This document shows, in pieces, positions 1 to 39,260 of a stretch of 64,000 nt of DNA; the stretch's first letter is position 1, and the number at the start of each line of letters is the position of its first letter. The stretch comes from Acidobacteriota bacterium (GTDB lineage: Bacteria > Acidobacteriota > Thermoanaerobaculia > Multivoradales > J023). The position numbers and the translations under genes were made by a program. The DNA is taken from assembly GCA_039194425.1 (NCBI GenBank), contig JBCCVZ010000022.1:48451-112450 (forward strand). Direction: 5' to 3'. The notes below the pieces were generated by a model. That model worked only from the letters and a program-made list of their open reading frames with translations, was not told the origin of the DNA and ran no database searches.

Positions 1-2702
1 CCGACGAGTGGCAGGGCTACCTCGAGGACGATGTGCGCCTCGCCGCCGAGCGCGTCTACCCCGACACGCTGCGCGTGCTCAAGCACGCACGCGCGCAGAT
101 GATCACCACCGCCGAGGCGGCCGACCAGCTTTCCGACATCGCCGCCAGCGAGCTGCATCCGCTGATCGGCCATCGCGGACGTCGCCTGCTCGATCATCTG
201 GTCGCCTCGGGCTGGCATCGCCCGACGGCGCCCGACGGTCCTGCCAGTCGGTCAGCGACCCGTTCTCGCTACCTGCCGCCGTTCGACCCGGGCGTCGACG
301 AGCCGCGTCTGCGCATGCGCTGGGAGCACGACCTCGATCGTGCGATCGCCGCGCCGGCCGGCGCGATCGCCGCCGCACCGGTCGCCGCCTCCGGACGACC
401 CGACCTCTCGACGCTCTGCTCGGCGCTGCTCGCCGACGTCGCCGCACGCGCCGACCAGCTGGCCGACGGCCGGCCTCGGCGGCGCGTGCTCGGCGCGGAT
501 CCCGGCGGTCTCACGCTGCAGCTCGCGGTCGAACGCGCCCTTCCGTTCGAGCGCGAAGAGATCGGCCGCGGCCGCTTCGTCGAAGTCTGCCACGACGCCT
601 ACGCCACGTTCGACGCCGCTGTCCGCCAGCAGCTCCACGAGCTCGGCGTCGAGCTCGACGCGCGGCGCTGGATCGATGTTGCCGGCTCGCGCGGCCGTAC
701 CGCCACCCGGCGGCTGCTCGCCGCTCTCGGAGATCGTGGCCTGGTGCGGCGTGAGCGTCGGCTCACGTGGTTCGACCCGGCGAGCGCGACGGTCCTGGTG
801 TCGCCCGACGTGACCCGCACCGAGGTCGAGGTCGCCGAACGCTGGACGCTGCGCTACCCCGTCGCCGCGGCAGCCGATGGCGAGGGCGGGGCCGACGGCG
901 AGGGAATCGCTGAAGAGATCGCCGTCCACTCCTTCTTTCCCGAGCTGCTGCTCGGCGCCGTCGGCGTCGCGGTGCGTGCCGACGGACCGCATGCGCATCT
1001 CGCCGACCGGCACGTCGACGATCCGCTCCGCCCCGGTGAGCGCCTGCCGATCGTGGCGGTCGACGAGCTCGAGGCCGATGCCACCGCCATCGTGCCGGCG
1101 CACGACCGCAGCGACGCCGAGCTGGCGCGAGCTCACGGACTCGGCGACGGTAGCGAGCGCGGCGTGCTCGATCGCCGCGGGCTGGTCCGCCTGCCCGGCA
1201 GGCCGCCGCTCGAGCGCGAGCAGGCGCGCCAGGAGTTGGCGACCCGGCTCGGCGGTCGGCTCAGCCACGAGGAAGGGGTCTGGCGGGTCGAGACCTGGCG
1301 CGCGCGCGGTTCCGGCACGCTGGTCAACCTCGGCCCGTCGCGCCAGGTTTTCGTCGACCTGTCGCTCGGCGCCGAGCGTCTGCGGCGCGCGATCGAGGAC
1401 GGCGCCGTCACCGTCTCGCACGAGCGCTGGCGCCGGCAGGTGCTCACCGCGCTCGACGAGCTCGAGCCCTGGTGCATCTCGCGCGGCCACTGGTGGGGAC
1501 ACCCGCTCGAGCTCGACGATCCCGGAGCGCGCTCCGACGCGAGCGACGACGAGCAGACCACCGCGTCGGTGTGGCTCACCCTGGCCGCCTGGACGCTTCA
1601 TGCTCTCGGCTGGCCCGAGGCGGCCGAGCCAGCACCGCTCGACGAGGTCTTCGTCGACGCCGAGCTGATCGAGCGCTGGCTGGTCCCGTCGCAGATTCTG
1701 GCCCTCACGCTCTGCCACCGCCCGGCCTTCCGCCACGTCCACGTGCACGGCACCGTCCACTTGGCGCGCCGCGAGCTGGTCGAGCGCCCGGGCTCGACGC
1801 CCGACCAGCCGGACGAGGAGCGCTTCGTGTCGCGTCCGGTGAAACGCCCGATGCGACGCCGGCTCGGCAACTCGATCGAGCCGGCGACGCTGATCCGTCG
1901 CTTTGGCGCCGATGCTCTGCGTCTCGGCTACCTGCTCTCGCTGCCGGTCGGTGGCGGCGCCAGCGCCACTCTCGACGAGTCGCGCCTGCGCCGTGGCCGG
2001 AGCACCGTGCAGCGACTGGTCTCCAAGGTCGGCGGCCTGCTCCACCTGGTGCCGGAGCCTCTCGACACGCCAGCGACGGACGACCCGAACCCGCAGCTCG
2101 CCGACCTGTGGATTCTGGCCCATCTCGACGCACTCGCCGATGCGGCGCGCGCCGACCTCGCGGCGCGGCGCGTCCGGCCGGCCGCCGAAGCCTTCGCCCG
2201 GGCCGCCGACGCGCTCGCCCGCTACGCCCGAGTCGCCGCCTCACGACCGCGCCGCCCGGCGCACCAGGCGTCGATCCGCCCGACCGTCGCGCGTCTCGTC
2301 GCCCTGCTGCACGATCCGTTCGCCGCGCTCTGCCCGTTTGCGCTCGAGAGCCTGCGCGAAACCGTCGCACCCCATACCGCCGCCGACCCCGCGGCCTGGG
2401 CACCCGGCGGCATGCACCATCTGCCGCTCCTGGTCGAGGTCCTGCGCCGGCGACCGCCCGGCGCGCGCACCGCCGTCGTCGCGACGCCGGACGCACCGCT
2501 GGCCGCGCTGCTGACCCCTGGTGCGCACGAGCTCGGGCTGCTCGCCGGTATCGATTTCCGGGTCGAGCCGGAGCCCCCGACGGGCGATGTCCGCCTCGCC
2601 GGGCCGGCGGTCGTCGTCTATCCCCCGGGACCTGCCGGACCGACGCTTCCGACCGGCGACGAGCCGGCCGCGATCTGGTACCGTTCGCTGCATTCGCTCT
2701 GA
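1..2702 (+). CDS. Valyl-tRNA synthetase-like paralog (class I aminoacyl-tRNA synthetase fold), 5'-partial. The KMSKS motif is degenerate and the protein is probably non-catalytic.
   Basis: The frame is open from nt 3 to the stop at 2700-2702, so the N-terminus lies upstream of the window. It aligns along its length with the adjacent genuine ValRS: WTLRYP vs FYTLRYGP, PWCISRGHWWGHP vs DWCISRQIWWGHRIP, and VKRPMRRRLGNSIEP...GADALRLGYLL vs HKMSKSKPETAVDP...GADVLRLSML. The KMSKS box is replaced by KRPMRRR. Confidence 0.6.
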   Translation, partial: DEWQGYLEDDVRLAAERVYPDTLRVLKHARAQMITTAEAADQLSDIAASELHPLIGHRGRRLLDHLVASGWHRPTAPDGPASRSATRSRYLPPFDPGVDEPRLRMRWEHDLDRAIAAPAGAIAAAPVAASGRPDLSTLCSALLADVAARADQLADGRPRRRVLGADPGGLTLQLAVERALPFEREEIGRGRFVEVCHDAYATFDAAVRQQLHELGVELDARRWIDVAGSRGRTATRRLLAALGDRGLVRRERRLTWFDPASATVLVSPDVTRTEVEVAERWTLRYPVAAAADGEGGADGEGIAEEIAVHSFFPELLLGAVGVAVRADGPHAHLADRHVDDPLRPGERLPIVAVDELEADATAIVPAHDRSDAELARAHGLGDGSERGVLDRRGLVRLPGRPPLEREQARQELATRLGGRLSHEEGVWRVETWRARGSGTLVNLGPSRQVFVDLSLGAERLRRAIEDGAVTVSHERWRRQVLTALDELEPWCISRGHWWGHPLELDDPGARSDASDDEQTTASVWLTLAAWTLHALGWPEAAEPAPLDEVFVDAELIERWLVPSQILALTLCHRPAFRHVHVHGTVHLARRELVERPGSTPDQPDEERFVSRPVKRPMRRRLGNSIEPATLIRRFGADALRLGYLLSLPVGGGASATLDESRLRRGRSTVQRLVSKVGGLLHLVPEPLDTPATDDPNPQLADLWILAHLDALADAARADLAARRVRPAAEAFARAADALARYARVAASRPRRPAHQASIRPTVARLVALLHDPFAALCPFALESLRETVAPHTAADPAAWAPGGMHHLPLLVEVLRRRPPGARTAVVATPDAPLAALLTPGAHELGLLAGIDFRVEPEPPTGDVRLAGPAVVVYPPGPAGPTLPTGDEPAAIWYRSLHSL

Positions 2703-2807
2703 GCTCGGATCGCCGCACATCGGCGCCGACCGCCGTCGATCGACCCATCGTCTTGTCGAGCCGACACCTTTGCCATCCAACGCCTGAGAGCACCGAGAGA
2801 GACCGTC

Positions 2808-5531
2808 ATGGCCCTGGACAAGTATTTCGAGCCCCGCGAGGCCGAGCCCGAGATCTACCGCCGCTGGGAAGAGTCGGGCGCCTTCGTCGCCGACGCCGAC
2901 TCCGAGCGCGAGCCGTTCGTCATCTCGATGCCGCCGCCGAACGCCACCGGCACCCTGCACACCGGCCACGCCGTGATGCTGGCGATCGAGGACCTGATGA
3001 CGCGCTGGCGGCGCATGCAGGGCTACGAGGCGCTCTGGCTGCCGGGCACCGACCATGCCGCGATCGCCACCGAGAGCCGCGTCATCGGCGACCTGCAGAA
3101 GCAGGGGATGCCGGATCCGCGCCACGAGCTCGGCCGCGAGGGTCTACTGCAGGCGATCCGTGAGTTCGTCGCCGACAGCCAGGACACGATCCGGCGCCAG
3201 ATTCGCGCCATGGGCTCGTCGTGCGACTGGTCGCGCGAGCGCTACACCATGGATCCGCAGCTCAACCGGGTCGTCATCGCGGTCTTCGCGCGCATGTTCC
3301 GCGACGGCCTGATCTACCGTGGTCCGCGCATCGTCAACTGGGACCCGGCGCTGCAGACCACCGTCTCGGACGACGAGATCGACTCGCAAGAGCGCACGGC
3401 GAAGTTCTATACCCTGCGCTACGGTCCGTTTCTGGTCGGCACCAGCCGCCCCGAGACCAAGCTCGGCGACACCGCGATCGCCGTCCATCCCGACGACGAG
3501 CGCTACAAGGACTACGTCGGCAAGACCTACGAGGTGCCCTGGCCGAAGGGACCGACGATCACGGTGCGCGTGGTCGCCGATTCGAAGGTCGATCCAGAGT
3601 TCGGCACGGGTGCGCTCGGTGTCACGCCGGCGCACTCGCACATCGACTTCGAGATGGCCGAGCGGCACGACCTGCCGCTGATCCAGGTGATCGGCGAGGA
3701 CGGCCGCATGACCGAGGCCGTCGGCCCGCACTACGCCGGCATGACGGTCGAAGAGTGCCGCGAGGCCTTCGCCGCCGAGCTCGACGCCGCCGGCCTCCTC
3801 GAGTCGGTCGAGGACTACCAGCAGAACACGTCGATCTGCTACCGCTCGAAGCAGCCGATCGAGCCACTGCCCAAGCCGCAGTGGTTCATCGACGTCAACA
3901 AGCCGGCGGTGCCGTGGAAGGGCCAGCGCCTGTCGCTCAAGCAGGTGATGCGCGACGCGGTCGCGTCGGGCGACATCCGAATCCTGCCCGAGCACCAGGA
4001 ACGCACCTACTTCCACTGGATCGACAACCTGCGCGACTGGTGCATCTCGCGCCAGATCTGGTGGGGCCACCGGATCCCGGTCTGGTACCGCGGCGAGGAA
4101 GAGATGTACGTCGGCCATCGTCCGCCCGGCGCCGGCAACGTCGACGAGGCGGCCCGCGAGGGCTGGGAGCAGGATCCCGACACGCTCGACACCTGGTTCT
4201 CTTCGGCGCTCTGGACCTGGTCTACCCTGATCGACCCCGAGCTCGCAGAGGACGAGACGCTCGACCTGCGCCACCTCCTCGCGGACAGCCCGGATTTCGC
4301 CAAGTTCCATCCCACCTCGGTGATGGAAACCGGCTACGACATCCTCTTCTTCTGGGTCGCGCGGATGATCCTGATGACTACCTACGCCACCGGCGAGGTG
4401 CCCTTCCGCACCGTCTTCCTTCACGGCCTGATCCTCGACCGCGACGGCCACAAGATGTCGAAGTCGAAGCCGGAAACCGCGGTCGATCCGCTCGAGGTGA
4501 TCGAGGAGCAGGGCGCCGACGTGCTGCGCCTGTCGATGCTGCTCGGCAACGCACCGGGCGTCGATCTCAAGCTCACAAAGGAGCGGATGGTCGGCTCGAA
4601 GCGCCTGATCAACAAGCTTTGGAACGCCGCCAAGCTGGTCGACCTGACGCTCGACCGCATTCTGGGCGACGCGCGCGCCGAGGGGCACCCGGAGGCTCCC
4701 GCCGACGTCGAGCACCCGGTCAATCGCTGGATGCTGGCGCGGGTCCGTGAGCTGGTGGAGCGCACCACCTCGCGCCTCGAGGCGTTCTCGTTCGGCGACG
4801 CCGCCGAGCAGATCCGGCAGTCCTTCTGGGGCGAGTTCTGCGACTTCTACCTCGAGGCGGTCAAGGTGGAGCCGCTGGCCTCGGCGCGCGAGACGGCCGA
4901 CGTCCTCGGCTACGCCTACCGAACCTACCTGGCGCTCTTCCACCCCTTCGTGCCCTTCGTCACCGAGCGGCTTTGGGCCGAGCTTTTCGCCGCCGGCGAC
5001 GACGAGATGCTGATCCGCGCGCGCTGGCCCGAGGCGGCCGACGGGCATCGCTATCCCGACGAAGCCGAAGGCGTCGCCGCGGTCGAGCGCCTGGTGCAGG
5101 CGGTGCGCGGCCTGCGTGTCGAGCAGAACCTCGACGCCGGCGCCAAGATCGAGCTCGAGGTGCGCCCGCTGGCACACGACGCGACGCTGCGCTCGGCCGA
5201 GGAGATCGTCGGCCGCCTGGTGCGCGCCGAATCGGTGACCTTCGTCGACTCCGACCCGTCGGAGCGCCCGGGCGCCGCGGTCGCCGTCGACCCGGCCTTC
5301 CAGGCCGCCGTCCGCCTCGGCAGCGCCGATCGCGACGCCGAGCGTCAGCGCCTCGAGAAGCAGCTTGCCGACGCCGAGAAGCGTCTGGTCGGACTCGAGA
5401 AGCAGCTCGCCAACGAGAACTTCGTCACCAAGGCGAACCCGAATGCGGTCGAGGCGGTGCGCAAGAACGCCGAAGACTGCCGCGCCACCATCGAGTCGGC
5501 CAAGGAGCGCCTCGCGGTGCTCGGCGAGTAG
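2808..5531 (+). CDS. valS: Valine--tRNA ligase (valyl-tRNA synthetase)
   Basis: ATG at 2808 preceded by gagagagacc. HIGH region PPPNATGTLHTGHA, WCISRQIWWGHRIP, KMSKSK, and a C-terminal coiled-coil tail (LEKQLADAEKRLVGLEKQLANENFVTKA) typical of bacterial ValRS. 907 aa. Confidence 0.93.
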   Translation: MALDKYFEPREAEPEIYRRWEESGAFVADADSEREPFVISMPPPNATGTLHTGHAVMLAIEDLMTRWRRMQGYEALWLPGTDHAAIATESRVIGDLQKQGMPDPRHELGREGLLQAIREFVADSQDTIRRQIRAMGSSCDWSRERYTMDPQLNRVVIAVFARMFRDGLIYRGPRIVNWDPALQTTVSDDEIDSQERTAKFYTLRYGPFLVGTSRPETKLGDTAIAVHPDDERYKDYVGKTYEVPWPKGPTITVRVVADSKVDPEFGTGALGVTPAHSHIDFEMAERHDLPLIQVIGEDGRMTEAVGPHYAGMTVEECREAFAAELDAAGLLESVEDYQQNTSICYRSKQPIEPLPKPQWFIDVNKPAVPWKGQRLSLKQVMRDAVASGDIRILPEHQERTYFHWIDNLRDWCISRQIWWGHRIPVWYRGEEEMYVGHRPPGAGNVDEAAREGWEQDPDTLDTWFSSALWTWSTLIDPELAEDETLDLRHLLADSPDFAKFHPTSVMETGYDILFFWVARMILMTTYATGEVPFRTVFLHGLILDRDGHKMSKSKPETAVDPLEVIEEQGADVLRLSMLLGNAPGVDLKLTKERMVGSKRLINKLWNAAKLVDLTLDRILGDARAEGHPEAPADVEHPVNRWMLARVRELVERTTSRLEAFSFGDAAEQIRQSFWGEFCDFYLEAVKVEPLASARETADVLGYAYRTYLALFHPFVPFVTERLWAELFAAGDDEMLIRARWPEAADGHRYPDEAEGVAAVERLVQAVRGLRVEQNLDAGAKIELEVRPLAHDATLRSAEEIVGRLVRAESVTFVDSDPSERPGAAVAVDPAFQAAVRLGSADRDAERQRLEKQLADAEKRLVGLEKQLANENFVTKANPNAVEAVRKNAEDCRATIESAKERLAVLGE

Positions 5532-5567: not shown

Positions 5568-5669
5568 ACTGGTGACGGGTGCCCACAGATGAAGCGGGCC
5601 GGCGTCCCCACAGTCCACCCGAGTCTTCGTCAAGCATTGCACACGACTGCTTGCTGGCTGACGGCGACG

Positions 5670-6617
5670 CTACATCGGAGGAGCCTGCCGCCTCACCCGG
5701 CGCACCATGAGCCAGCCGGCGAGCAGGACCATCGGCAGGCCGTGGGCGAGCGCGTGCAGCAGTCCGAGGCGGCGTTGCGACGCGGCGAGCTCGTCACCGA
5801 GAGAGCCCGAGCCGATGAGCACGACGGGCCGTTCGCACGGCCGGGTCGAGCCCTCCGTACCGGAGAGCGCATCCTCGATCGCATCCCGATAACCGGCCTC
5901 CTCGACTCCGATCGGCTCGTGCAGCCACAGCGGCACGTCGGCGACCAGCTCGCGCTGCGCTTCACGCACAGTCGGCGCGTCGCCCAGACGTCGCCCGAGC
6001 CATACGCAGCCTGGCCGTCCATCGCTTGCGTCGGCCAGCGGCGCGACCAGGCTGTAGGTCTCGACACGCCGCGCGTCGCCGAGGAGCCAAACCTGGTAGT
6101 CGACGCCCAGCGGCTCCTCGAGCACCCGCCACGACGGGCTCCGCCGGTAGAGGATCGTCTCTCCCGCCCCGGCCTCGACTTCACCGAGCGAACCCGCGAG
6201 CCGCTCGTCGGCACGCAACAGCCACACCAGACGCCCCGCCTCGTCGCTGCCGACGAGCACGATGAACAGCCCGGCGAGTCCGAGCAGGAAGAGGTAGCCC
6301 CAGGCATGCTCGCGCCCCTCGACGTCGAGCACCAGCCAGCGACCGACGAGAGCCTTGAGCGCGATCGGGAAGCCGAGAAACACCGGCACACCGAGAAGCA
6401 GCCCGAGCAGCGAGCCGATGCTCAGGCCGAAGAGAGCACCCACCACCAAGGTGAGCGCCAGCCCGGCGCCGCCGACGACCAGCAACGCCAGGTGCCCGAG
6501 CACCAGATTGCGCGCCCAGGCGACGAGAATCGTCCCCCCGGCGGTCGGCGAGACGGACTCGGGCTCGATGGCGGTCGATGGGTCCTGCATCGCGCGGATC
6601 GTACCCGCCCGGCGCAA
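5670..6617 (-). CDS. Hypothetical integral membrane protein
   Basis: TTG/alternative start. The N-terminal approximately 130 aa contain 3-4 strongly hydrophobic helices (LVLGHLALLVVGGAGLALTLVVGALFGLSIGSLLGLLLGVPVFLGFPIALKALVGRWLVL...), followed by a soluble domain. The overlapping plus-strand ORF 5589-6710 is R/Q/E/H-rich low-complexity typical of antisense translation. Confidence 0.45.
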   Translation of the reverse strand: MRRAGTIRAMQDPSTAIEPESVSPTAGGTILVAWARNLVLGHLALLVVGGAGLALTLVVGALFGLSIGSLLGLLLGVPVFLGFPIALKALVGRWLVLDVEGREHAWGYLFLLGLAGLFIVLVGSDEAGRLVWLLRADERLAGSLGEVEAGAGETILYRRSPSWRVLEEPLGVDYQVWLLGDARRVETYSLVAPLADASDGRPGCVWLGRRLGDAPTVREAQRELVADVPLWLHEPIGVEEAGYRDAIEDALSGTEGSTRPCERPVVLIGSGSLGDELAASQRRLGLLHALAHGLPMVLLAGWLMVRRVRRQAPPM

Positions 6618-6657
6618 AATCGCCGTTGCCTGTCCGTCTCATCCCGCGGAGGGTTTG

Positions 6658-9600
6658 ATGAGTACCACCGCGATATACTCTTCTCAACGTTTATCATCGG
6701 AAGGGTTTGATGTGTCGCGGTGGTACGCATCAGTTTTTGCGTTGCTGACAGCCTCCGCGGTCTTGCTCACTGCTGGCGCTCTCTGGAGATCGGACCAGGA
6801 GACGTCACAGAGCGATACGACGCTGGGCCATCGCGCCCCACCCATCGCCCTGCTGGCCGATGCGCTGCAGCCCCACCGTCCGATTCACGGACGGCTCGAC
6901 GGCGTCCGTCACGGACTCTTCGACCCGACAGCGACCGTGCCTCTCGAGGCGATCTCCCGCACCGCCCGACCCGGCTCGCGCTCTGCCACGGCGGCCGGCG
7001 ACCCGGGAGGGCCCCCGGGTTCCGACCCGGCTGCACTCGGCGCCGAGGCTGCGCGTCTGCTCTACCTCGGCGAACCGGACGTCGCGGTCGAACTCCTCGA
7101 CGAGGCCATTCGGCTCACTCCTGACGATGCCGCCCTGGCCAACGATCTCGGCGTTGCCTTGCTCGAGTCGGCGCGAGTCGACGACCGTGCGTTCCACTTC
7201 GTCCGCGCGGCCGACGCACTGCTCACCGCCACGCGCCTCGACCCGTCGTCGGCGACCGCGCACTTCAACCTGGCGATCGCGCTCGAAGAGCTCGGCCTCG
7301 TCGACGCCGCGATCGCCACCTGGCGCAGAGGCTTGGTGCTCGAGACCGACTCCGACTGGCGGGGCGAAGCCGAGTCTCGGCTGCGCCAGCTGAGTGTGTC
7401 GCGGCGCTCGCCGGGAGCCTTGCGTGCTCGGCTCGACGCCGCCTCCTCGGCGCCGGAGACGTCTGAGCTCGGCGCCGTGCTCGACGCCGTCCTGCGCGAG
7501 CGAGCCGGCGTCGTGCGGCGCTGGACCGTCGACTCCGTGCTCGACGCGTGGGCCGACGCGTACCTGCAAGGTGACCTGCCGACGGCGGACGGACGGCTCG
7601 CTACGTCCCGCAAAATCGCCGTGCGCCTGCAGGTGCGACTCGGCGACGCCTACCTCGGCGACCTGATCGCGGCGATCGAGCAAGCCGAAGCGCAAGAGCT
7701 CGATCAGCTCGCTCGCGCCCATCGTCGATTCGCCGAGGCGACGCGGCTCTTCGGCGATTTCGACGCGGGCGCCGCACGGGACGCCTTCCGAGAAACCGTC
7801 GAGCTGCTCGACGATGCGCCAACCCCGCTCGGCCTGGCCGCGGCGACCGAGCTCCTGGCCTGCACCTGGTACGACTATGCCCAACGCGGCAGCCTGCGGA
7901 CAGAGGTCGAGGCTCTGTTCGAGAGCCTCGGCGATCGCCCGTACCCGGCCCTGCGCGGGCGGCTCCACTGGATCGCAGCGGTGCCCGCGTACATGGCGGG
8001 CGACACGCGGAGCGCTGAAAAGAGTCTCGAGGCGGCTGCCGAGGCCTACCTCCAAGCGGACGACGTCGACGAGCTGGCCGGCGTGTCGGACCTCTTCGCG
8101 CTCGTCGACGGCTACCTCGGCGAAACTGAACGGGCCTGGAATCACCACCTCGACGCCCTCCGGCAGGCACCACGGCTCGAGCGTGCACGGCGTCGAATGA
8201 TGGTGACCACCGACGCCGCCCGCGCGCTCTTCGAGCTCGGGCACCCGGAGGTCGCCGTGCTCTTGATCGATGCCGGGGTCGTCGCAGCCGACGCCCTCGG
8301 CGATGCTCTGCCACGCGCCGAAACGCGCTGGTGGCGCGCTCGCATCCAGCATCGGCGCGGCGCATGGAACGCGACGAGCGGCGATCTCGCCGAGGCCCGG
8401 CAGTTCGCGACCGCGATCCGCTTCAGCGAGCAGCGGCGTCGCATGGTCGCCGACATCGCCCTTCTCGAAGCTGAAGTCTCGATCGTGGAAGACCCCGAGC
8501 AAGCGCTGGCCAGGCTCGAAGAGGCGGAAGCGCTGCAACGAGAGCTCGAGGTCGACGACTTGCTGCCCGAGATCCTGCTCGCGCAGGGGCGCCTGAAACG
8601 ACTCCAGGGCGACGACCCTCGTCCGCCGCTCGAGCGCGCCGCGGCGCTTTTCGCCGCGCGGCGCGCCGGGATCGGTGGCGCCCGCGCACGCAAGACCTTC
8701 GATGAGCGCTTCGAGACGCTGGACGAGGAACGGATTCTGGTCGAGCTCGAAGCCAATCGCCCCTGGAATGCGCTCGAGCTTGCCGACAGGATTCGGCGTC
8801 GCGCCCATCCCCTGCCTGCCACCTGCGCGCCCGTCCCGTTGTTCGGCGCGCTAGAGGCGCTCGCGCGGGAGCTACCCGACGACACGATGGCTCTCGTCTT
8901 CCGACGGCTCGACGGCGAGCTCGTTCTCTTCGCCGTGCGCGGCGACGGCCTCCGGGTCCACCGCCTGCGCGACGCGGAGCTTTCGAGCGCGCTTCCCCAC
9001 ACGAGCCTCGCGCGCGCCGTCGAGCACTTCGATGTGCTAGTGCGTCGCGACGCGCCGACCAATGACGTCGGGCATCTCGCGGCAGCGCTCGGCCAACACC
9101 TCCTCGGCGCAGAGAGCGCACGGCTCGAGACGACCCGTCGGCTGTTGATCGTGCCCGACGAGGAACTGCACCAAGTCGCCTGGGCGGCGCTCGCCGCGCC
9201 CCACTCTGGGGCCTGGTTGGTCGAGAGTCACGAGCTCGTCGTTTCGTCCAGCCTCGCCCGCTTCCTCGCCTGCTCCACGTCCGTCGACCCCACGCAGACC
9301 ACGGGTACACCGTCGGTGCTGGCGATCGCCGCACCGCTCGGCGCCGAAGAGCCGCTGCCGTGGACGCTCGAGGAAGCGCGTGCGGTCGCCGCCGCTTACG
9401 CCGACGGCCGCATGCTCGACGCTTCCGACACGCCGCGGCGCGACTTGCTGGCTGCTCTCACCGCGGAGCCGATCCTCCACCTGGCCACGCACGGAGAGGT
9501 CGACGAGGAATTCCCGAGCCGCTCGCGCCTGCACCTCGGCCCGACGGCCGGCGTGCTCACCGCCCGCGACCTGAGCGACCTTGACCTCCGCGCCACGCAG

Positions 9601-9885
9601 CTCGTCGTGCTCGCCGCTTGCGACACCGCGCGCGGACGTATCTGGCGCCAGAGCGGCGTCGACAGCCTCGCCTCTGCCGCCCTCGCCGCCGGCGCCCGGT
9701 CCGTGGTCGCCCCACTTTGGGCTGTCGACGACCGCGCCACCGCCGCCCTCATGACCGACTTCCATCGCCGGCTCGCTGCCGGCGCCTCGCCCGCCGCGGC
9801 GCTACGCCAAGCCCAGCGCGCCGCCATCCGCGACTCCGCATCGCCCAGCGTCTGGGCGCCGTTCCAGGTCCACGGCGTCAACTGA
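6658..9885 (+). CDS. TPR-repeat protein with C-terminal CHAT (caspase HetF-associated with TPRs) peptidase-like domain and an N-terminal signal anchor
   Basis: The internal ATG (MSTTAIYSS...) avoids a 260-nt overlap with the upstream minus-strand gene. A hydrophobic anchor (VFALLTASAVLLTAGALW) follows the start. Long alpha-helical TPR-like region. C-terminus LVVLAACDTARG...ARSVVAPLWAVDD...WAPFQVHG is characteristic of CHAT domains. Confidence 0.85.
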   Translation: MSTTAIYSSQRLSSEGFDVSRWYASVFALLTASAVLLTAGALWRSDQETSQSDTTLGHRAPPIALLADALQPHRPIHGRLDGVRHGLFDPTATVPLEAISRTARPGSRSATAAGDPGGPPGSDPAALGAEAARLLYLGEPDVAVELLDEAIRLTPDDAALANDLGVALLESARVDDRAFHFVRAADALLTATRLDPSSATAHFNLAIALEELGLVDAAIATWRRGLVLETDSDWRGEAESRLRQLSVSRRSPGALRARLDAASSAPETSELGAVLDAVLRERAGVVRRWTVDSVLDAWADAYLQGDLPTADGRLATSRKIAVRLQVRLGDAYLGDLIAAIEQAEAQELDQLARAHRRFAEATRLFGDFDAGAARDAFRETVELLDDAPTPLGLAAATELLACTWYDYAQRGSLRTEVEALFESLGDRPYPALRGRLHWIAAVPAYMAGDTRSAEKSLEAAAEAYLQADDVDELAGVSDLFALVDGYLGETERAWNHHLDALRQAPRLERARRRMMVTTDAARALFELGHPEVAVLLIDAGVVAADALGDALPRAETRWWRARIQHRRGAWNATSGDLAEARQFATAIRFSEQRRRMVADIALLEAEVSIVEDPEQALARLEEAEALQRELEVDDLLPEILLAQGRLKRLQGDDPRPPLERAAALFAARRAGIGGARARKTFDERFETLDEERILVELEANRPWNALELADRIRRRAHPLPATCAPVPLFGALEALARELPDDTMALVFRRLDGELVLFAVRGDGLRVHRLRDAELSSALPHTSLARAVEHFDVLVRRDAPTNDVGHLAAALGQHLLGAESARLETTRRLLIVPDEELHQVAWAALAAPHSGAWLVESHELVVSSSLARFLACSTSVDPTQTTGTPSVLAIAAPLGAEEPLPWTLEEARAVAAAYADGRMLDASDTPRRDLLAALTAEPILHLATHGEVDEEFPSRSRLHLGPTAGVLTARDLSDLDLRATQLVVLAACDTARGRIWRQSGVDSLASAALAAGARSVVAPLWAVDDRATAALMTDFHRRLAAGASPAAALRQAQRAAIRDSASPSVWAPFQVHGVN

Positions 9886-23886: not shown

Positions 23887-26800
23887 TCACTCGAGCTCCT
23901 GGCGCACGGCCATCGCCGCAAACAGGCCACCGCGCGCCATCAGCTCGTCGTACGAGCCCGACTCGGCCACCTTGCCCTCGTGCAGGTAGAAGATGGTTTC
24001 GACGTTGCGAATCGTCGACAGGCGGTGGGCGATCACCACGCGCGTGACCTGCAATGCTTCGAGACTCTTCTGCACCGTCAGCTGGGTTTCGTTGTCGAGC
24101 GCACTCGTCGCCTCGTCGAAGAGCAGAATCGCCGGCTCGTTGACCAACGCGCGGGCGATCATCAGACGCTGCTTCTGGCCGCCCGAGAGACCGCCTCCAC
24201 CTTCGCTGATCACGGTGTGGATGGTCATCGGCATGCGCCGAATGTCGCGCTCGAGCCCGGCCTTGGCGGCGGCGGCCCAGGCCTCTTCCTCGGTGCGCGA
24301 GCTGGCGCCGACAATGTTGCGCAGAATGTCGGCCGGCAGGATCTTGCTGTCCTGCAGCACGACGCCGAGCTGCTGGCGCAGCAGGCGCAGGTCGAGCATC
24401 GACAGGTCCTGGCCGTCGTAGAGAATCGAGCCGCGCTCCGGCTGCTCGAAGCCGAGCAGCAGACGCAGCAACGTCGACTTTCCCGAGCCCGAACTGCCGA
24501 CGATCGCGACGCTGCCTGCCGCAGGGATCGAGAGCGAGAGATTGTCGAGCACCGGGGGCCCGGACGGGTCGTAGCGGAACGAGAGATTCGAAATCTCGAT
24601 GGCGCCGCGCAGCGCGCCCGGCGACATCTTGCCCTCGCGCACCTCGGGCCGCGCCTGGAGCACCGGCCGCAGCCGATCGAACATCGGCAGCACCTGGAGC
24701 AGGTCGACCGACGCGGTGCCGAGTGCCTGAACCGCGGTGGAGAAGATGCCGAACGCGGCCATGAACGCGAGGAAGTCGCCGGTCGAAAGGTCGAACGTCT
24801 CGCCACGCTCGGCCGCGCCTTCCTTGAGCTGAACCATGACGAAGAAGAGCACCAGCGTGGTGAAGGTGGTGTAGCCCGCATTGACCACGGCGACCCAGTT
24901 GCCGCGATGCCCGGACTTGAAGGCGACCGAGCGCTGGCGTGCGAAGCGCTGCGCCCAGACGTGAAAGGCGTGCACCTCGGCGCCGCTCACCCGCAGCTTC
25001 GCCATGCCGCCGATCAGCTGCACCATCAGGCCGTGGATCCTCCCGCGCAGCTCGAACTCGTCGCGCTGCAGGCGTACCCGCGTGACGTTGATCAGCCAGG
25101 TGCCGAACACATAGGCCACGGTCAGCAGAACGGCGACGACGGCGAGCTTCCAGCTATAGACCCCCATCTGCACAGCGTTGAACAGCGACGCGACCGAACC
25201 GAGAATCGCCGACACGCCGACCCGAGCCAGCAGGCCGCGGATCTTCGACACGCCGCCGGCGCGATCGGACAGGTCGCCCGCGGTGAATTCATGGAAAAAG
25301 CCGACCGGCAGCTCGAGGAGGCGGTCCCAGACCGCCGCCTGTGCGCTGTAGTCGGCCTTGCCCTGCACTCGCAGCACGGCGATCTTCTGGGTGATCTGGA
25401 ACGCTGCCGTGGCGCAGGCGGCGAGCGCCAATCCCAAGCTGAGATGCAGCAGCATCGTGGTCTCCGACTGCAGCAGGGCGACGTCGTAGATCTTGCCGGT
25501 GATGAACGGCGCGACCATGCTGAGCAAGCCGAGGCCGACGCCCATCGCAACGATCACGCGCAGCTCGGCGCCGAGATCGCGCAGCGCGAACGCCCCCAGC
25601 TCGCGCGCGCCGAGCGTGTTCAGATCGCTCGGGAAGGGCCGGTAGAGCACGTGGCCAAAGCCGGTGAGCTCGCGCGCCAGCGCGCGATCGACCTGCCGCT
25701 CCTCACCCGTCACCGGGTCGATGCAGGTGTAGGTCGGCACGCCGCGGCGCCACCACGAGCGCTCGCCCTGGAGCATGACGACAACCGACTTTCCGTCACG
25801 GCGTGGAGCGAGGAAGTGCCCGATCTCGTGCGTCCACCAGCCGTCCTCGAGCCAGATCTGGCGCACGCGAAAGCCCGAGGCGACGGCGATGTCGGCGAGC
25901 GCGTCGTCGAACTTGCGCTCACCGTGGTGGTAGGGATGCGGACGCACCTCGAATCCCTGCGCGCGGCCGAGGTGCCGGCAGGCTTCGAGCAACGGCTCGA
26001 GTGGCACCTCGTCGTGGATGCGCGGGCGCCACTGCTTGGTGCCGCCCATGACCGACTTGATCGCTCCCAGCGCCTCGTCGCCGACGCGCTCCCACTCGCG
26101 CGCCCGCTGGCGCAGACGCACGGCATCGTCGAGCTTGCCCATCTTCAGCTGCAGCAGGAACGACGCGGCAAAGGCACGGTGATAGAGCTCGAGCGCAAGC
26201 CACGGCTCACGCCGCACCAAGGCCTCGGCGGTCGACCACGCACGCGCCGTCACCGCACGCGCCGTGGTCTCGAGCGCCAGCCAGTCGTCTGGGGCGAGCG
26301 GAAAGAGCGGCGTCGGCCCCTGGTAGGTCTCGTCGCGGACGAAGAACGGGCACTCGACCTCGATCCAGGTGACCCCCTGGCCGACCAGCACGCCGGACAC
26401 CGACTGCGGCTCGGCCGTCGGTCGCACGACCGTGCGCTCACGCGGCATCCGGTCGCGCGGCAGGCGTGAGCCGAGCGCCGTGATCCAGGCGTCGAGCGCC
26501 TGGGCGACGCGCGCCCGGTGCCGGCGCACCAGAACCTGCACGTGATCGATGCCGATCTCGCGCACCGCCGCCGCCTTGCCGACGGCGATGAACCCGACCT
26601 GGTCGTCGTCGCCGTAGTCCTGCGGATCCGGGTGGAAGAAGACGCCGCCCGCCCGCACCGTGGCGACATGGGTCCGCTCGCCGTACGGCCGGCCGTCGAC
26701 CAGCGGCACCGCGAAGAGATCGACATGCCCCCGCAGCACCCACCACGAGACGTCCGGGTCGGTGAGCGGCAGCGGCGCACTGGCGGTCAGCTCGAGCCCG

Positions 26801-27243
26801 CGGCCCTGCTCCTCGAACGGATCGTCCAGAGTCGGCAGCAGCTCGTCGAGATTGCGGATGCGCTGCGTGCGCGACGGCATCTCGGGCGAGGGGCCCTCGG
26901 GCGCCTCCGCCGCGACGCGGTGTCGCGCGAAGCGGAAGGTCGAGCGACCGATCGAGAATTGGCCGCCGACCTCGAGCGTCGCGGTCGACACCTGGCGCCC
27001 GTTGACGATCATCCGGTTGCTGCTGGCCTGGTCCTCCACCCGCAGCGTGCCGTCGTCGCCGAGGCGTACGACGACGTGACGACGCGACATCGCCGGGTCG
27101 AGCAAGCGCAGGTCGCAGTCGTGGCCGCGGCCGATCGACAGCGCGCCGTCGGCGAGCTGGATCCGCCGCTCGATCCACGAGCTGTCGGGACTGGCGGTGA
27201 CCGTCAGGTAGGCGCCGCCGCGGGCGGTCGTCGCGCGCGCCAT
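23887..27243 (-). CDS. NHLP/NHLM-type bacteriocin-export ABC transporter (permease + ATPase) with N-terminal FHA domain and cNMP-binding-like domain
   Basis: N-terminus: an FHA domain (SIGRGHDCDLRLLDPAMSRRHVVV...DQASSNRMIVNGRQV) then a cNMP-binding-like beta-roll. Then a 6-TM ABC exporter domain and an ATPase with Walker A GSSGSGKST, ABC signature LSGGQKQR and Walker B LLFDEATSALD. Its start is 1 nt after the stop of the upstream ABC gene. Confidence 0.9.
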   Translation of the reverse strand: MARATTARGGAYLTVTASPDSSWIERRIQLADGALSIGRGHDCDLRLLDPAMSRRHVVVRLGDDGTLRVEDQASSNRMIVNGRQVSTATLEVGGQFSIGRSTFRFARHRVAAEAPEGPSPEMPSRTQRIRNLDELLPTLDDPFEEQGRGLELTASAPLPLTDPDVSWWVLRGHVDLFAVPLVDGRPYGERTHVATVRAGGVFFHPDPQDYGDDDQVGFIAVGKAAAVREIGIDHVQVLVRRHRARVAQALDAWITALGSRLPRDRMPRERTVVRPTAEPQSVSGVLVGQGVTWIEVECPFFVRDETYQGPTPLFPLAPDDWLALETTARAVTARAWSTAEALVRREPWLALELYHRAFAASFLLQLKMGKLDDAVRLRQRAREWERVGDEALGAIKSVMGGTKQWRPRIHDEVPLEPLLEACRHLGRAQGFEVRPHPYHHGERKFDDALADIAVASGFRVRQIWLEDGWWTHEIGHFLAPRRDGKSVVVMLQGERSWWRRGVPTYTCIDPVTGEERQVDRALARELTGFGHVLYRPFPSDLNTLGARELGAFALRDLGAELRVIVAMGVGLGLLSMVAPFITGKIYDVALLQSETTMLLHLSLGLALAACATAAFQITQKIAVLRVQGKADYSAQAAVWDRLLELPVGFFHEFTAGDLSDRAGGVSKIRGLLARVGVSAILGSVASLFNAVQMGVYSWKLAVVAVLLTVAYVFGTWLINVTRVRLQRDEFELRGRIHGLMVQLIGGMAKLRVSGAEVHAFHVWAQRFARQRSVAFKSGHRGNWVAVVNAGYTTFTTLVLFFVMVQLKEGAAERGETFDLSTGDFLAFMAAFGIFSTAVQALGTASVDLLQVLPMFDRLRPVLQARPEVREGKMSPGALRGAIEISNLSFRYDPSGPPVLDNLSLSIPAAGSVAIVGSSGSGKSTLLRLLLGFEQPERGSILYDGQDLSMLDLRLLRQQLGVVLQDSKILPADILRNIVGASSRTEEEAWAAAAKAGLERDIRRMPMTIHTVISEGGGGLSGGQKQRLMIARALVNEPAILLFDEATSALDNETQLTVQKSLEALQVTRVVIAHRLSTIRNVETIFYLHEGKVAESGSYDELMARGGLFAAMAVRQELE

Positions 27244-27244
27244 C

Positions 27245-29497: not shown

Positions 29498-30639
29498 CAG
29501 CTGAAGCCCAAGGTCTTCTTGACGTAGGGGATGACCAGCTCGATCGGCGCCCGCTCCCCCACCGTGATGCGCGCCGAGCACGGCGTATTGCTCTCGATGT
29601 CGAGCTCCTGACCCTTCGACGTCGTCCACTCGAACACGTCATCGCGGTCGGGGTCGGGGTCGATCACGACCTCGTACGGCGTACCCTCGATGAACTGCTC
29701 GACGAGCTGATCGTTGTTCAACGTCGAGCGCACCTGCTCCGGAGTCACCGGCTGGGCCGACACGGTCAGGACGACGCCGCGGATGTAGCCGTACTCCTCC
29801 GGCTTGATGGTGGACGGCGCGATGCGCACCGGCATGCCGGCCTCCGCCCGCTTGCCCTCGGCGAGCGCGACGTAGAGCACTAGCTGATACGGCTCGCCGG
29901 CGGCCTCGAGGTTGAGAATGCGGCCACCGGCATCGATCATCACGCCGTCGGTGACCAGCACCGCGGCGACCCGGCCGGCGACCGGACTGATCACCTCGGA
30001 GCCGTCTTTCTGGTCCGCCTGCAGCTGCTCGAGAGTGCGCTTCTCGTCGCGGATGCGGGCGGCGAACTCCTCTTCGCTCAGGTCGATCTGCAGCAGCTGG
30101 CCCTCGACCTGGGCGATCTCGCCCTCGATCGCCAGGATGTCCTGTCGCCGCGCGAGCCCTTTCGCCTGCAGCCCCTGCTTGGCGCGAAGGCGCTCCCGCA
30201 GGCCGCTCAGCTGGCGCTCGTAGGCACCGCGCTGGCGGCGCCAATCGGCCAGCTGAAGCAATCCCTGGCGCTCGAGATCACCGATGCGTTTCTCGGTGGC
30301 GTCGATCTGGTTCTGCAGCTCGGCGAGGTCGAGCGTAGCCACCACGTCGCCGGCGGCGATCGTGTCACCGACCTCGACCTGCACCTCGACGACACGGCCG
30401 GCGACCGGCGCTTGCACCGTGCCGACATTCTCGCCCTGGAGCAGCATGCCGACACCGTCGACCTCGATCGGCAGGCTGCCGAAGACGCTCCACGCCACCA
30501 CCGCCGCGAGCCCGGCGAGAATCGCCAGCAGCGCCGTCCAGCCGGCGGGCGAGGTCACCGTCATCGGTAGGTCGAGCTGCTCGGGCGAGGCCGAGCGCTC
30601 GAGCTCGGCCTTGCGCATGAGATCCTGCGGTCCGAGCAC
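29497..30639 (-). CDS. NHLM-bacteriocin-system secretion protein (HlyD-family membrane fusion protein)
   Basis: N-terminal TM anchor (WTALLAILAGLAAVVAW). Lipoyl-like hairpin motifs (GTVQAPVAGRVVEVQVEVGDTIAAGDVVATLD ... VISPVAGRVAAVLVTDG), a long coiled coil, and a C-terminal beta-domain. Confidence 0.85.
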   Translation of the reverse strand: MLGPQDLMRKAELERSASPEQLDLPMTVTSPAGWTALLAILAGLAAVVAWSVFGSLPIEVDGVGMLLQGENVGTVQAPVAGRVVEVQVEVGDTIAAGDVVATLDLAELQNQIDATEKRIGDLERQGLLQLADWRRQRGAYERQLSGLRERLRAKQGLQAKGLARRQDILAIEGEIAQVEGQLLQIDLSEEEFAARIRDEKRTLEQLQADQKDGSEVISPVAGRVAAVLVTDGVMIDAGGRILNLEAAGEPYQLVLYVALAEGKRAEAGMPVRIAPSTIKPEEYGYIRGVVLTVSAQPVTPEQVRSTLNNDQLVEQFIEGTPYEVVIDPDPDRDDVFEWTTSKGQELDIESNTPCSARITVGERAPIELVIPYVKKTLGFS

Positions 30640-30642
30640 GCC

Positions 30643-32655: not shown

Positions 32656-32659
32656 GGCC

Positions 32660-39232: not shown

Positions 39233-39260
39233 CGAGTGTCTTCGTGCTCCGATCGATCGA

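What the first reader, a model, noticed from the sequence alone, without database searches (positions are those of the whole stretch)
1..5531. Tandem ValRS genes: an intact valS preceded by a full-length paralog with a destroyed KMSKS motif
The upstream copy retains the synthetase scaffold in frame over more than 880 aa (conserved WCISRGxWWGHP, editing-domain-like region, anticodon-binding-like tail). Its KMSKS is replaced by KRPMRRR, and it lacks the C-terminal coiled coil. This looks like a pseudo-synthetase maintained under selection, possibly acting only as an editing or tRNA-binding factor or as a regulator, rather than a decaying duplicate.
Basis: seen in the sequence. Interest (0 to 1): 0.55.

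Follow-up and report, generated by a model that had tools for sequence, protein, structure and literature searches.

The report
Amino-acid dehydrogenase fused to dead ValRS
The gene in front of valS is not a free-standing, decaying ValRS copy: it is the tail of a 1,262-residue protein that joins a leucine-dehydrogenase-type enzyme to a catalytically dead but strongly conserved ValRS body, a family I found undescribed, seen only in uncultured bacteria and usually next to valS.

Summary

The ORF runs off the 5' edge of the window. A near-identical contig (1 mismatch in 2,995 nt) supplies the rest. The product is 1,262 aa: an N-terminal Leu/Phe/Trp-type amino-acid dehydrogenase with its catalytic Lys/Lys/Asp and NAD motif intact, fused to an ~800-aa ValRS-derived body. 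HIGH lies inside the window and is also gone (DLST).

About 96 homologues from at least seven phyla, all metagenomic, share this fusion. Across the family the ATP motifs and the editing residues are lost, and the CP1 editing domain is deleted in a ~1,000-aa short form. The amino-acid pocket is kept (D81, P42, W456, W495).

dN/dS of the dead domain is 0.05-0.27, about the same as the neighbouring essential valS. A class Ia synthetase gene (valS, alt-valS or ileS) lies within 8 kb in about 24 loci.

Best reading, which is inferred: a HisZ-like ligand-sensing or regulatory module that controls the fused dehydrogenase. I found no literature on it.

The parts
1..2702 (+). 3' 71% (codons 364-1262 plus stop) of a 1,262-codon fusion gene: amino-acid dehydrogenase joined to a pseudo-ValRS. 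The 5' 1,089 nt lie outside the window.
   Evidence: Open frame. P0001 is ~100% identical at 1,262 aa. L001 overlaps window 1-2995 with 1 mismatch.
3..218 (+). C-terminal helices of the Leu/Phe/Trp-type (ELFV) dehydrogenase domain, P0001 aa 364-435.
   Evidence: Alignment to leucine dehydrogenase 6acf through P0001 aa 408. Coordinates.
219..278 (+). Poorly conserved linker between the two domains.
   Evidence: Mean top-residue frequency 0.30. pLDDT below 50.
279..713 (+). Pseudo-ValRS, first half of the Rossmann fold. The HIGH position reads DLST (nt 402-413). The GxDxxG segment with the retained D81 equivalent is GADPGG (nt 492-509).
714..1343 (+). CP1 editing-domain-like insertion. Editing residues are replaced (SFFPELL nt 930-950; VPAHDRSD nt 1092-1115) and both Zn knuckles are lost in this copy (DPAS nt 774-785; RARGSG nt 1299-1316).
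1344..1793 (+). Pseudo-ValRS, second half of the Rossmann fold. WCISRGHWWGH is at nt 1470-1502. The retained W456 equivalent is in SVWLTL (nt 1566-1583) and the W495 equivalent in VDAELIERW (nt 1653-1679).
1794..2033 (+). Remodelled KMSKS loop and stem-contact region. It has a family-specific insertion (DEERF, nt 1812-1826), PMRRR in place of KMSKS (nt 1848-1862), then LGNSIEP and FGADALRLGYLL. This is the most conserved part of the dead domain.
2034..2393 (+). Alpha-helical bundle corresponding to the ValRS anticodon-binding domain. Weakly conserved; the ValRS signature W..CD.Y.E..K is lost.
2394..2699 (+). Small alpha/beta C-terminal tail, junction-domain-like. No coiled coil. Hardly conserved in sequence.
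2703..2807 (.). 105-nt spacer between the fusion gene and valS. No terminator-like or promoter-like site and no Rfam element.
2808..5531 (+). Intact bacterial-type valS, 907 aa, with HIGH (HTGH), KMSKS, editing motifs, anticodon domain and C-terminal coiled coil.

Best explanation
What is shown: window nt 1-2702 encodes the C-terminal 899 residues of a 1,262-residue, two-module protein.
- Module 1 (mostly upstream of the window) is an NAD(P)-dependent amino-acid dehydrogenase of the Leu/Phe/Trp-dehydrogenase clade, and it looks catalytically competent.
- Module 2 is an ancient derivative of a bacterial-type ValRS. It keeps the whole ValRS architecture except the coiled coil. It cannot activate an amino acid, because neither HIGH nor KMSKS survives. 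It has lost the threonine-recognising residues of the editing site.

What is inferred: the dead ValRS body works as a ligand-binding regulatory or scaffold module for the fused dehydrogenase, as HisZ (a dead HisRS) does for HisG. Its retained amino-acid pocket (D81, P42, W456, W495 equivalents) would bind a valine-like amino acid without activating it. Occupancy would be transmitted to the dehydrogenase, coupling oxidative deamination (or reductive synthesis) of a branched-chain-type amino acid to the supply needed by ValRS. The ValRS gene is probably co-transcribed 105 nt downstream.
For: Architecture:
-.
- AF2 models with pLDDT 86 and pTM 0.81-0.83.

Dehydrogenase looks competent:
- Equivalents of LeuDH K68, K80 and D115 are invariant in the 31 fusion and 17 stand-alone sequences compared.
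- The VQGxGNVG NAD motif and GAANN are also kept.

Synthetase is dead:
- H53 is kept in 0 of 91 members. K528 is P in 70 of 91. K531 is K in only 13 of 91.

Amino-acid pocket is kept:
- D81 is D or E in 91 of 91, P42 in 90 of 91, W456 in 89 of 91, W495 in 91 of 91.
- The ribose-binding D490 is acidic in 54 of 57 long forms.

Where the constraint sits:
- The two Rossmann halves and the KMSKS-loop region are the most conserved parts. The helix bundle and tail are the least.

Selection:
- omega is 0.05-0.27 for the dead domain against 0.06-0.22 for valS in the same genomes.
- The Zn knuckles are either all four Cys (29 of 57) or none (28 of 57), which points to maintained structure.

Functional link to branched-chain synthetases:
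- valS, alt_ValS or ileS lies within 8 kb in about 24 fusion loci, 9-111 nt away for short forms.
- This includes stand-alone dehydrogenases of the same clade directly upstream of valS (L052) or alt_ValS (L050).
Against: - No binding or activity data exist. The regulatory role is inferred from sequence only.
- The dehydrogenase substrate is unknown. Its side-chain pocket differs from characterised LeuDH (L40->Q, V294->C, plus invariant Arg at four nearby positions), so valine is not assured.
- About 13 loci with full 10-kb flanks (Sericytochromatia, Wallbacteria, Planctomycetota) have no synthetase gene nearby.
- Adjacency to valS could partly be a relic of origin by tandem duplication.
- D81 and the Trp residues could be conserved for folding rather than for ligand binding.
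- I could not inspect model coordinates, so the interface between the two modules is unknown.
Confidence: 0.4

Rival explanations
1. tRNA sensor, GCN2-like. The dead ValRS body still binds tRNA(Val), charged or uncharged, and switches the dehydrogenase according to charging status.
For: - The whole tRNA-binding architecture apart from the coiled coil is predicted to fold.
- The helix bundle is kept even in the short forms.
- Many conserved Arg residues surround the former active site and the KMSKS loop.
- The acidic D490 equivalent, which binds adenosine ribose in ValRS, is kept in long forms.
Against: - Only 3 of 14 ValRS-conserved positions of the anticodon-binding bundle survive, and the W..CD.Y.E..K signature is lost.
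- The bundle is among the least conserved parts, after the C tail.
- The coiled coil that holds the tRNA elbow is absent.
- CP1 is dispensable.
Confidence: 0.2
2. New chemistry in the remodelled site. The former synthetic site has become a different catalytic or substrate-channelling site. It might hold the 2-oxo acid or an adenylated or tRNA-bound aminoacyl group that the dehydrogenase acts on.
For: - The remodelled residues are not random but family-invariant: RRvLGsDxGG, S885, R921-W922, the DEERF insertion, RPMR.
- The dehydrogenase has four extra invariant Arg residues near its substrate site.
Against: - The same Arg residues occur in stand-alone dehydrogenases that have no ValRS module.
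- The carboxylate-binding Lys (K68 equivalent) is kept, which fits a free amino acid.
- No catalytic residue set can be named.
Confidence: 0.12
3. Pure scaffold. The dead ValRS only provides oligomerisation, solubility, or docking onto ValRS or the translation machinery, without binding a small ligand.
For: - Strong synteny with valS.
- The linker is variable but pTM is high, suggesting a fixed domain arrangement.
Against: A scaffold role does not explain why the amino-acid-pocket residues are kept while the ATP motifs are lost. It also does not explain why the active-site region is the most constrained.
Confidence: 0.12
4. Trans-editing factor. The CP1-like domain hydrolyses mischarged Thr-tRNA(Val).
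For: - The universal Asp (D279 equivalent) is kept in 53 of 57 long forms.
Against: - R216, T219, K270 and T272 equivalents are replaced by hydrophobic residues family-wide.
- CP1 is deleted in 34 of the 91 members compared (34 short, 57 long), possibly more than once.
- In real ValRS CP1 is the most conserved domain; here it is below the core.
Confidence: 0.03
5. Recent decaying duplicate of valS (pseudogene) or assembly artefact.
For: It sits in tandem with valS, its signature motifs are destroyed, and it scores very low against ValRS models.
Against: - No stop or frameshift over 1,262 codons in two assemblies.
- Only ~23% identical to ValRS.
- Homologues occur in several phyla.
- omega is 0.05-0.27.
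Confidence: 0.01

Closest known systems
HisZ, the HisRS paralogue that is the regulatory subunit of ATP phosphoribosyltransferase HisG
   Same: A catalytically dead aminoacyl-tRNA synthetase paralogue physically coupled to an enzyme of amino-acid metabolism. [quoted passage not shown] That it mediates histidine feedback is from my own knowledge.
   Different: - HisZ is class II, a separate subunit, and lacks the anticodon domain.
- Here the paralogue is class Ia (ValRS), about 800 aa, covalently fused, and coupled to a dehydrogenase.
- Ligand binding is not shown here.
HisRS-like domain of the kinase GCN2
   Same: A dead synthetase domain fused in one polypeptide to an effector enzyme. GCN2 is activated by deacylated tRNA (PMC7373986). 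That its HisRS-like domain is the tRNA-binding part is from my own knowledge.
   Different: - GCN2 is eukaryotic, class II-derived, and its effector is a kinase.
- Here the anticodon-domain signature is largely lost, so tRNA sensing is the less likely reading.
Canonical bacterial ValRS (T. thermophilus 1GAX; the window's own valS)
   Same: - WCISRQxWWG and GADALR motifs, the amino-acid pocket residues, and the CP1 and helix-bundle domains are shared.
   Different: - No HIGH, no KMSKS, editing residues replaced, no coiled coil.
- 17-aa insertion before the KMSKS loop.
- N-terminal dehydrogenase fusion.
- 158 bits against the 704-bit cut-off.
Leucine dehydrogenase (6acf, 1leh) and tryptophan dehydrogenase ScyB
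   Same: - The N-terminal module aligns over aa 57-408: 242 bits to 6acf and 223 bits to the ScyB model.
- The catalytic Lys/Lys/Asp and the NAD motif are retained.
   Different: - Extra ~56-aa N-terminal extension.
- Pocket changes L40->Q, V291->I, V294->C, with invariant Arg at the T35, L36, Y67 and A288 positions.
- Below every NCBIfam equivalog cut-off.
- Fused to a dead synthetase.
Catalytically active aaRS paralogues (YadB/GluQRS, MshC)
   Different: Those keep the ATP motifs and still adenylate their substrate (my own knowledge). This family has lost them.

Membership tests
Valine--tRNA ligase (functional ValRS) | HIGH signature in the first Rossmann half | tested here: not met
   DLST at nt 402-413. 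The H53 equivalent is kept in 0 of 91 family members.
Valine--tRNA ligase (functional ValRS) | KMSKS loop | tested here: not met
   PMRRR at nt 1848-1862. Family consensus is P-M-R-x-x.
Valine--tRNA ligase (functional ValRS) | Score above the curated equivalog cut-off | tested here: not met
   PRK05729 scores 158 bits against a 704-bit cut-off. TIGR00422 scores 131 against 612.
Valine--tRNA ligase (functional ValRS) | Class Ia fold with CP1 insertion and helical anticodon domain | tested here: met
   [not shown]
Valine--tRNA ligase (functional ValRS) | Editing-site residues that recognise threonine (R216, T219, K270, T272, D279 of T. thermophilus) | tested here: not met
   F, L, A, V and D in the window copy. 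F/Y, L, F/L, V and D in the family. CP1 is absent in the short forms.
Valine--tRNA ligase (functional ValRS) | C-terminal coiled-coil tRNA-binding arm | tested here: not met
   PF10458 is found only in the downstream valS. The tail here is a small alpha/beta unit.
Glu/Leu/Phe/Val (ELFV) amino-acid dehydrogenases, Leu/Phe/Trp clade | Catalytic Lys (K80), carboxylate-binding Lys (K68), Asp (D115) and the GxGxxG NAD motif | tested here: met
   Equivalents of K68, K80 and D115 are invariant in the 48 sequences compared (31 fusions, 17 stand-alone). The VQGxGNVG motif is kept. These residues lie upstream of the window, in L001/P0001.
Glu/Leu/Phe/Val (ELFV) amino-acid dehydrogenases, Leu/Phe/Trp clade | Leucine/valine-type side-chain pocket (L40, A113, V291, V294 of LeuDH) | tested here: inconclusive
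   Q, A, I and C in all fusions. The substrate cannot be assigned from sequence.
Regulatory dead-aaRS paralogues (HisZ-like) | Loss of the adenylation motifs with retention of the amino-acid pocket | tested here: met
   ATP motifs are lost, while D81, P42, W456 and W495 are kept in 89-91 of 91 members.
Regulatory dead-aaRS paralogues (HisZ-like) | Physical coupling to an enzyme that handles the cognate amino acid | tested here: inconclusive
   The covalent fusion to an amino-acid dehydrogenase is shown. That its substrate is valine is inferred only from synteny with valS and ileS.
Regulatory dead-aaRS paralogues (HisZ-like) | Allosteric control of the partner enzyme by the bound ligand | not testable with these tools
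   Needs enzymology.
GCN2-type tRNA-sensing pseudo-synthetase domains | Binding of uncharged tRNA | not testable with these tools
   Indirect evidence only: 3 of 14 ValRS-conserved anticodon-domain positions are kept, and the coiled coil is lost.
Pseudogene / decaying duplicate | Frameshifts or stops, relaxed selection, restricted distribution | tested here: not met
   The ORF is intact. omega is 0.05-0.27. The family occurs in at least seven phyla.

The most novel reading that the evidence does not exclude
The fusion is a tRNA- or adenylate-linked amino-acid oxidation machine. The dead ValRS body would hold the aminoacylated 3' end of Val- or Thr-tRNA(Val), or an aminoacyl-adenylate, in its retained amino-acid/ribose pocket and present it to the dehydrogenase. 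That would give a new kind of aminoacyl-tRNA clearance or 2-oxoacyl-tRNA formation. A milder form of the same idea is the first bacterial GCN2-like device that reads tRNA(Val) charging to gate branched-chain amino-acid catabolism.
Probability: 0.07. Interest if true: 0.9.

Novelty: new variant of a known kind. Interest (0 to 1): 0.62.

Why it matters
Dead synthetase paralogues that have become regulators (HisZ, the GCN2 HisRS-like domain) are few, and those two are class II-derived.

This would be a full-size class Ia example. It is covalently wired to an amino-acid dehydrogenase, is under selection as strong as the essential valS beside it, and is spread across Acidobacteriota, Sericytochromatia, Planctomycetota, Wallbacteria, Calditrichaeota and others, all of them uncultured.

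It offers a directly testable system for three questions:
- How a synthetase scaffold is re-used as a sensor.
- Which parts of ValRS are needed for amino-acid binding as opposed to catalysis.
- How branched-chain amino-acid turnover is tied to tRNA charging in little-studied phyla.

It also corrects annotation. These proteins are currently labelled 'class I tRNA ligase family protein', 'valyl-tRNA synthetase' or 'leucine dehydrogenase'.

Tried and rejected
- Exact look-up of the window valS product: not on record.
I modelled homologue P0004 and the window ORF instead.
- The afdb50 fold library was unavailable, and model coordinates are not exposed. So neither the domain interface nor pocket geometry could be examined.
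- Rfam on the window and on L001, and ARAGORN on the window: nothing. No T-box, leader or tRNA gene.
- Promoter and terminator scan of the spacer: nothing between the two genes.
- Neighbour clustering across 80 loci: apart from class Ia synthetase genes, and in one acidobacterial subgroup a large NAD-GDH plus an SDR, no recurrent partner was found. The sensor kinase, NifU-like, sigma-factor and secreted CAP-like neighbours are lineage-specific.
- Stand-alone pseudo-ValRS proteins: the candidates inspected (P0018, P0043, P0100) are a frameshift split or 5'-truncated fragments.
- Seven literature searches (dehydrogenase-ValRS fusion, pseudo-synthetase ValRS, the Pfam domain pair, aaRS-like plus amino-acid dehydrogenase, ValRS-like/paralog, HisZ/GCN2 paralogs): none found a description of this protein.
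- The antisense ORF at 252-2123 was rejected as a shadow frame typical of a 74% G+C gene, because the homologues all support the + strand.
Full report
**What is in the window**

The region is about 70-76% G+C. Reading frame 3 is open from nt 3 to a TGA at 2700-2702, which is 899 codons. After a 105-nt spacer, an ATG at 2808 opens a 907-codon gene that ends at 5531.

The downstream gene is an ordinary bacterial valS:
- NCBIfam PRK05729 scores 921 bits against a cut-off of 704.
- Pfam finds tRNA-synt_1, Anticodon_1 and the C-terminal coiled-coil arm.
- HTGH is at nt 2958-2969 and KMSKS at nt 4452-4466.

The upstream ORF is ValRS-like but far below every ValRS threshold. It scores 158 bits against 704, and Pfam tRNA-synt_1 gives 84 bits. 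WCISRGHWWGH is at nt 1470-1502. VKRPMRRRLGN sits where KMSKSxGN should be, with PMRRR at nt 1848-1862. There is no coiled coil.

The ORF has no start in the window. Its first ~72 codons are not ValRS.

A protein search found P0001, ~100% identical and 1,262 aa, with Pfam ELFV_dehydrog_N plus ELFV_dehydrog plus tRNA-synt_1. Its contig L001 (Logan assembly of SRR22824306) overlaps window 1-2995 with a single mismatch and supplies the missing 5' 1,089 nt.

The gene therefore encodes these parts:
- aa 1-56: a conserved N-terminal extension.
- aa 57-~435: a Leu/Phe/Trp-type amino-acid dehydrogenase.
- a ~20-aa variable linker.
- aa ~456-1262: a ValRS-derived body.

Aligned to T. thermophilus ValRS 1GAX, the HIGH position falls inside the window and reads DLST (nt 402-413). 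Both class I signature motifs are gone.

**It is a family, not an accident**

About 96 homologues of 960-1,270 aa share the fusion. A scan of one genome per GTDB species returned full-length copies only from MAGs. These were Acidobacteriota (Thermoanaerobaculia, Holophagales, Pyrinomonadaceae, Blastocatellia), Candidatus Sericytochromatia and Blackallbacteria, Planctomycetota, Wallbacteria, Calditrichaeota, Cloacimonadota, and 'Deltaproteobacteria' and 'Cytophagia' bins.

In a library of 1.84 billion 50%-identity representatives, only 22 score at E<=1e-30. Below them the list drops straight to ordinary ValRS at 75-125 bits, so the family is small and discrete.

There are two forms:
- Long (~1,150-1,290 aa), like the window gene.
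- Short (~1,000 aa), which lacks the CP1 editing-like insertion and the C-terminal tail.

One MAG carries both forms (L042 and L043). The apparently stand-alone ValRS-like entries I inspected are 5'-truncated fragments or a frameshift split.

**What is lost and what is kept in the ValRS-like body**

Counts are from 57 long and 34 short members, in T. thermophilus numbering.

| Site | Role in ValRS | State in the family |
|---|---|---|
| H53 (HIGH) | ATP binding | never His |
| K528 (KMSKS) | ATP binding | Pro in 70 of 91 |
| K531 (KMSKS) | ATP binding | Lys in only 13 of 91 |
| R216, T219, K270, T272 | editing, Thr recognition | F/Y, L, F/L, V |
| D279 | editing, universal Asp | kept in 53 of 57 long forms |
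| P42 | amino-acid pocket | 90 of 91 |
| D81 | binds the alpha-amino group | D or E in 91 of 91 |
| W456 | amino-acid pocket | 89 of 91 |
| W495 | amino-acid pocket | 91 of 91 |
| P41 | narrows the pocket in ValRS | A, M or T |
| D490 | binds adenosine ribose | acidic in 54 of 57 long forms |

Further points:
- CP1 is absent from all short forms.
- The remodelled residues are themselves invariant or nearly so: RRvLGsDxGG, S885 for D454, R921-W922, a 17-aa insertion with DEERF, and RPMR.
- By domain, the two Rossmann halves and the KMSKS-loop/stem-contact region are the most conserved. CP1-like is lower, the helix bundle lower still, and the tail hardly conserved.
- In the neighbouring genuine valS genes, CP1 is the most conserved domain.
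- Of positions at least 80% conserved in 45 diverse ValRS, the dead body keeps 38-41% in the Rossmann, CP1 and KMSKS regions. In the anticodon-binding bundle it keeps only 3 of 14, and the W..CD.Y.E..K signature is lost.
- The two CxxC zinc knuckles are either fully present (29 of 57) or fully absent (28 of 57). The window copy has none, like its valS.

**Structure**

Two AF2 models were made: homologue P0004 (1,168 aa, pLDDT 85.9, pTM 0.81) and the window ORF itself (pLDDT 86.1, pTM 0.83).
- The tail folds as a small alpha/beta unit and there is no coiled coil.

**The dehydrogenase**

The best solved relatives are leucine dehydrogenases (6acf at 242 bits), then tryptophan and phenylalanine dehydrogenases. 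NCBIfam's closest model is ScyB tryptophan dehydrogenase, at 223 bits against a cut-off of 600.

The equivalents of K68, K80 and D115 are invariant in the 48 sequences compared, and the NAD-binding glycine motif is kept. The side-chain pocket differs, however: L40->Q, V291->I, V294->C. Four nearby positions are invariant Arg (T35, L36, Y67 and A288 equivalents). Most of these changes are shared with stand-alone dehydrogenases of the same subfamily in Saprospiraceae, Myxococcota and Ignavibacteria.

The enzyme therefore looks active, but its substrate cannot be read from sequence.

**Selection**

Nei-Gojobori dN/dS was computed with my own script on 25 close pairs (one could not be scored for the ValRS-like part because dS was saturated). 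It gives 0.05-0.27 for the ValRS-like part and about 0-0.18 for the dehydrogenase part.

In seven of the same genome pairs, the adjacent genuine valS gives 0.06-0.22. The dead domain is thus under purifying selection about as strong as an essential gene.

**Genomic context**

A class Ia synthetase gene lies within 8 kb of the fusion in about 24 loci.
- Bacterial-type valS is downstream on the same strand in most of them. The gap is 9-111 nt for short forms and 267-5,300 nt for long forms.
- L039 (Calditrichaeota) has valS directly upstream.
- L031 has a bacterial valS divergently upstream and an intact alt_ValS-type gene 215 nt downstream.
- L045 has two bacterial valS genes flanking the fusion.
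- L081, a 12.2-Mb chromosome, has ileS ending about 4 nt before the fusion start.
- Two stand-alone dehydrogenases that nest inside the fusion clade in a neighbour-joining tree (no support values) sit directly upstream of valS (L052) or alt_ValS (L050).
- About 13 loci with full flanks have no synthetase nearby. These are Sericytochromatia, Wallbacteria, Planctomycetota and some Acidobacteriota.

In the window, no terminator-like or promoter-like site, RNA family or tRNA gene separates the fusion from valS. That is compatible with co-transcription but does not prove it.

The dead body scores best against the bacterial-type valS model: 158 bits, against 83 for the archaeal type and 26 for alt_ValS. 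Together with the synteny, this suggests an ancient tandem duplication of valS that fused to an upstream dehydrogenase.

**Mechanism**

Shown:
- The fusion architecture.
- The loss of both ATP motifs and of the Thr-recognising editing residues.
- The retention of the amino-acid pocket.
- Strong purifying selection.
- Recurrent linkage to valS, alt-valS and ileS.

Inferred:
- The dead ValRS body binds, but does not activate, a valine-like amino acid in its old synthetic site.
- It acts as an allosteric or scaffold module for the dehydrogenase, as HisZ does for HisG.
- This ties turnover of a branched-chain-type amino acid to the needs of ValRS.

I put this at about 0.4. The rivals are:
- A GCN2-like tRNA sensor (0.2). 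It is weakened by the degraded anticodon domain and the missing coiled coil.
- A new catalytic or channelling site (0.12).
- A pure scaffold (0.12).
- A trans-editing factor (0.03).
- A pseudogene (0.01).

**Comparison with what is known, and novelty**

The closest concepts are HisZ and the GCN2 HisRS-like domain. HisZ is cited as an aaRS paralogue, and GCN2 as activated by deacylated tRNA, in PMC7373986; the finer details are from my own knowledge. Both are class II-derived.

This protein fails membership as a functional ValRS on four defining features. It fits the ELFV dehydrogenases on catalytic residues, but with an unassigned substrate.

Searches of the paper library for the fusion, for ValRS-like or pseudo-ValRS proteins and for the Pfam domain pair found no description of it. 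Database names are generic: 'class I tRNA ligase family protein', or 'valyl-tRNA synthetase/glutamate dehydrogenase/leucine dehydrogenase'.

I rate it a new variant of a known kind (regulatory dead-synthetase paralogues), with interest 0.62.

Noticed in passing
window 23887-39328: Likely class II lanthipeptide gene cluster. It contains a LanM-type synthetase (DUF4135 + LANC_like, 35825-39328, minus strand), a C39-peptidase ABC exporter (27245-29638), an FHA-domain ABC transporter (23887-27258) and an outer-membrane efflux protein (30643-32706). I did not search for the precursor peptide.
   Followed up: no
window 6355-9885: A 1,176-aa TPR + CHAT (caspase-like) domain protein lies downstream of valS. 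The 5589-6710 stretch between them has overlapping ORFs on both strands with no Pfam hit.
   Followed up: no
L031 7406-15788; L045 7270-15183; L018 21333-23687; L050 11406-13799: Some Acidobacteriota carry two intact ValRS genes around the fusion: a bacterial type plus an alt_ValS/archaeal type (L031), or two bacterial types (L045). Repeated valS duplication or acquisition at this locus may be the source of the dead copy.
   Followed up: partly
L081 6788-13630 (OZ375331.1, 12.18-Mb chromosome): Here the fusion gene starts about 4 nt after a type-2-like ileS (TIGR00392 at 684 bits, with the DUF5915 tail) rather than next to valS.
   Followed up: partly
L042 and L043 (same MAG, DATAJY01): One genome holds both a long form without a valS neighbour and a short, CP1-less form followed by valS after 72 nt. 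In the neighbour-joining tree the short forms fall in two separate groups, which hints at more than one CP1 loss.
   Followed up: partly
window 774-785 and 1299-1316: The two CxxC zinc knuckles flanking CP1 are all-or-none across the family: CCCC in 29 of 57, none in 28 of 57. The window copy has none, matching the Zn-less state of its own valS.
   Followed up: yes
window 1413: This is the single difference between the window and contig L001 over 2,995 nt. G in the window against T in L001 gives Val against Phe at residue 834 of the fusion protein.
   Followed up: yes
L002-L006, L080, L083 upstream of the fusion: In the closest acidobacterial relatives, a large (~1,600-aa) NAD-specific glutamate dehydrogenase (Bac_GDH) lies upstream on the opposite strand, often with an SDR. 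In the window's own organism the upstream genes are instead a NUDIX hydrolase, a flavin reductase and a PolX-like gene.
   Followed up: partly
L054-L079: Stand-alone dehydrogenases of the same subfamily occur in Saprospiraceae, Myxococcota and Ignavibacteria without any synthetase neighbour. They share motifs MTRKNALA and NRMGI[TV]NC and the extra Arg residues. As far as I could find, the subfamily is uncharacterised.
   Followed up: partly
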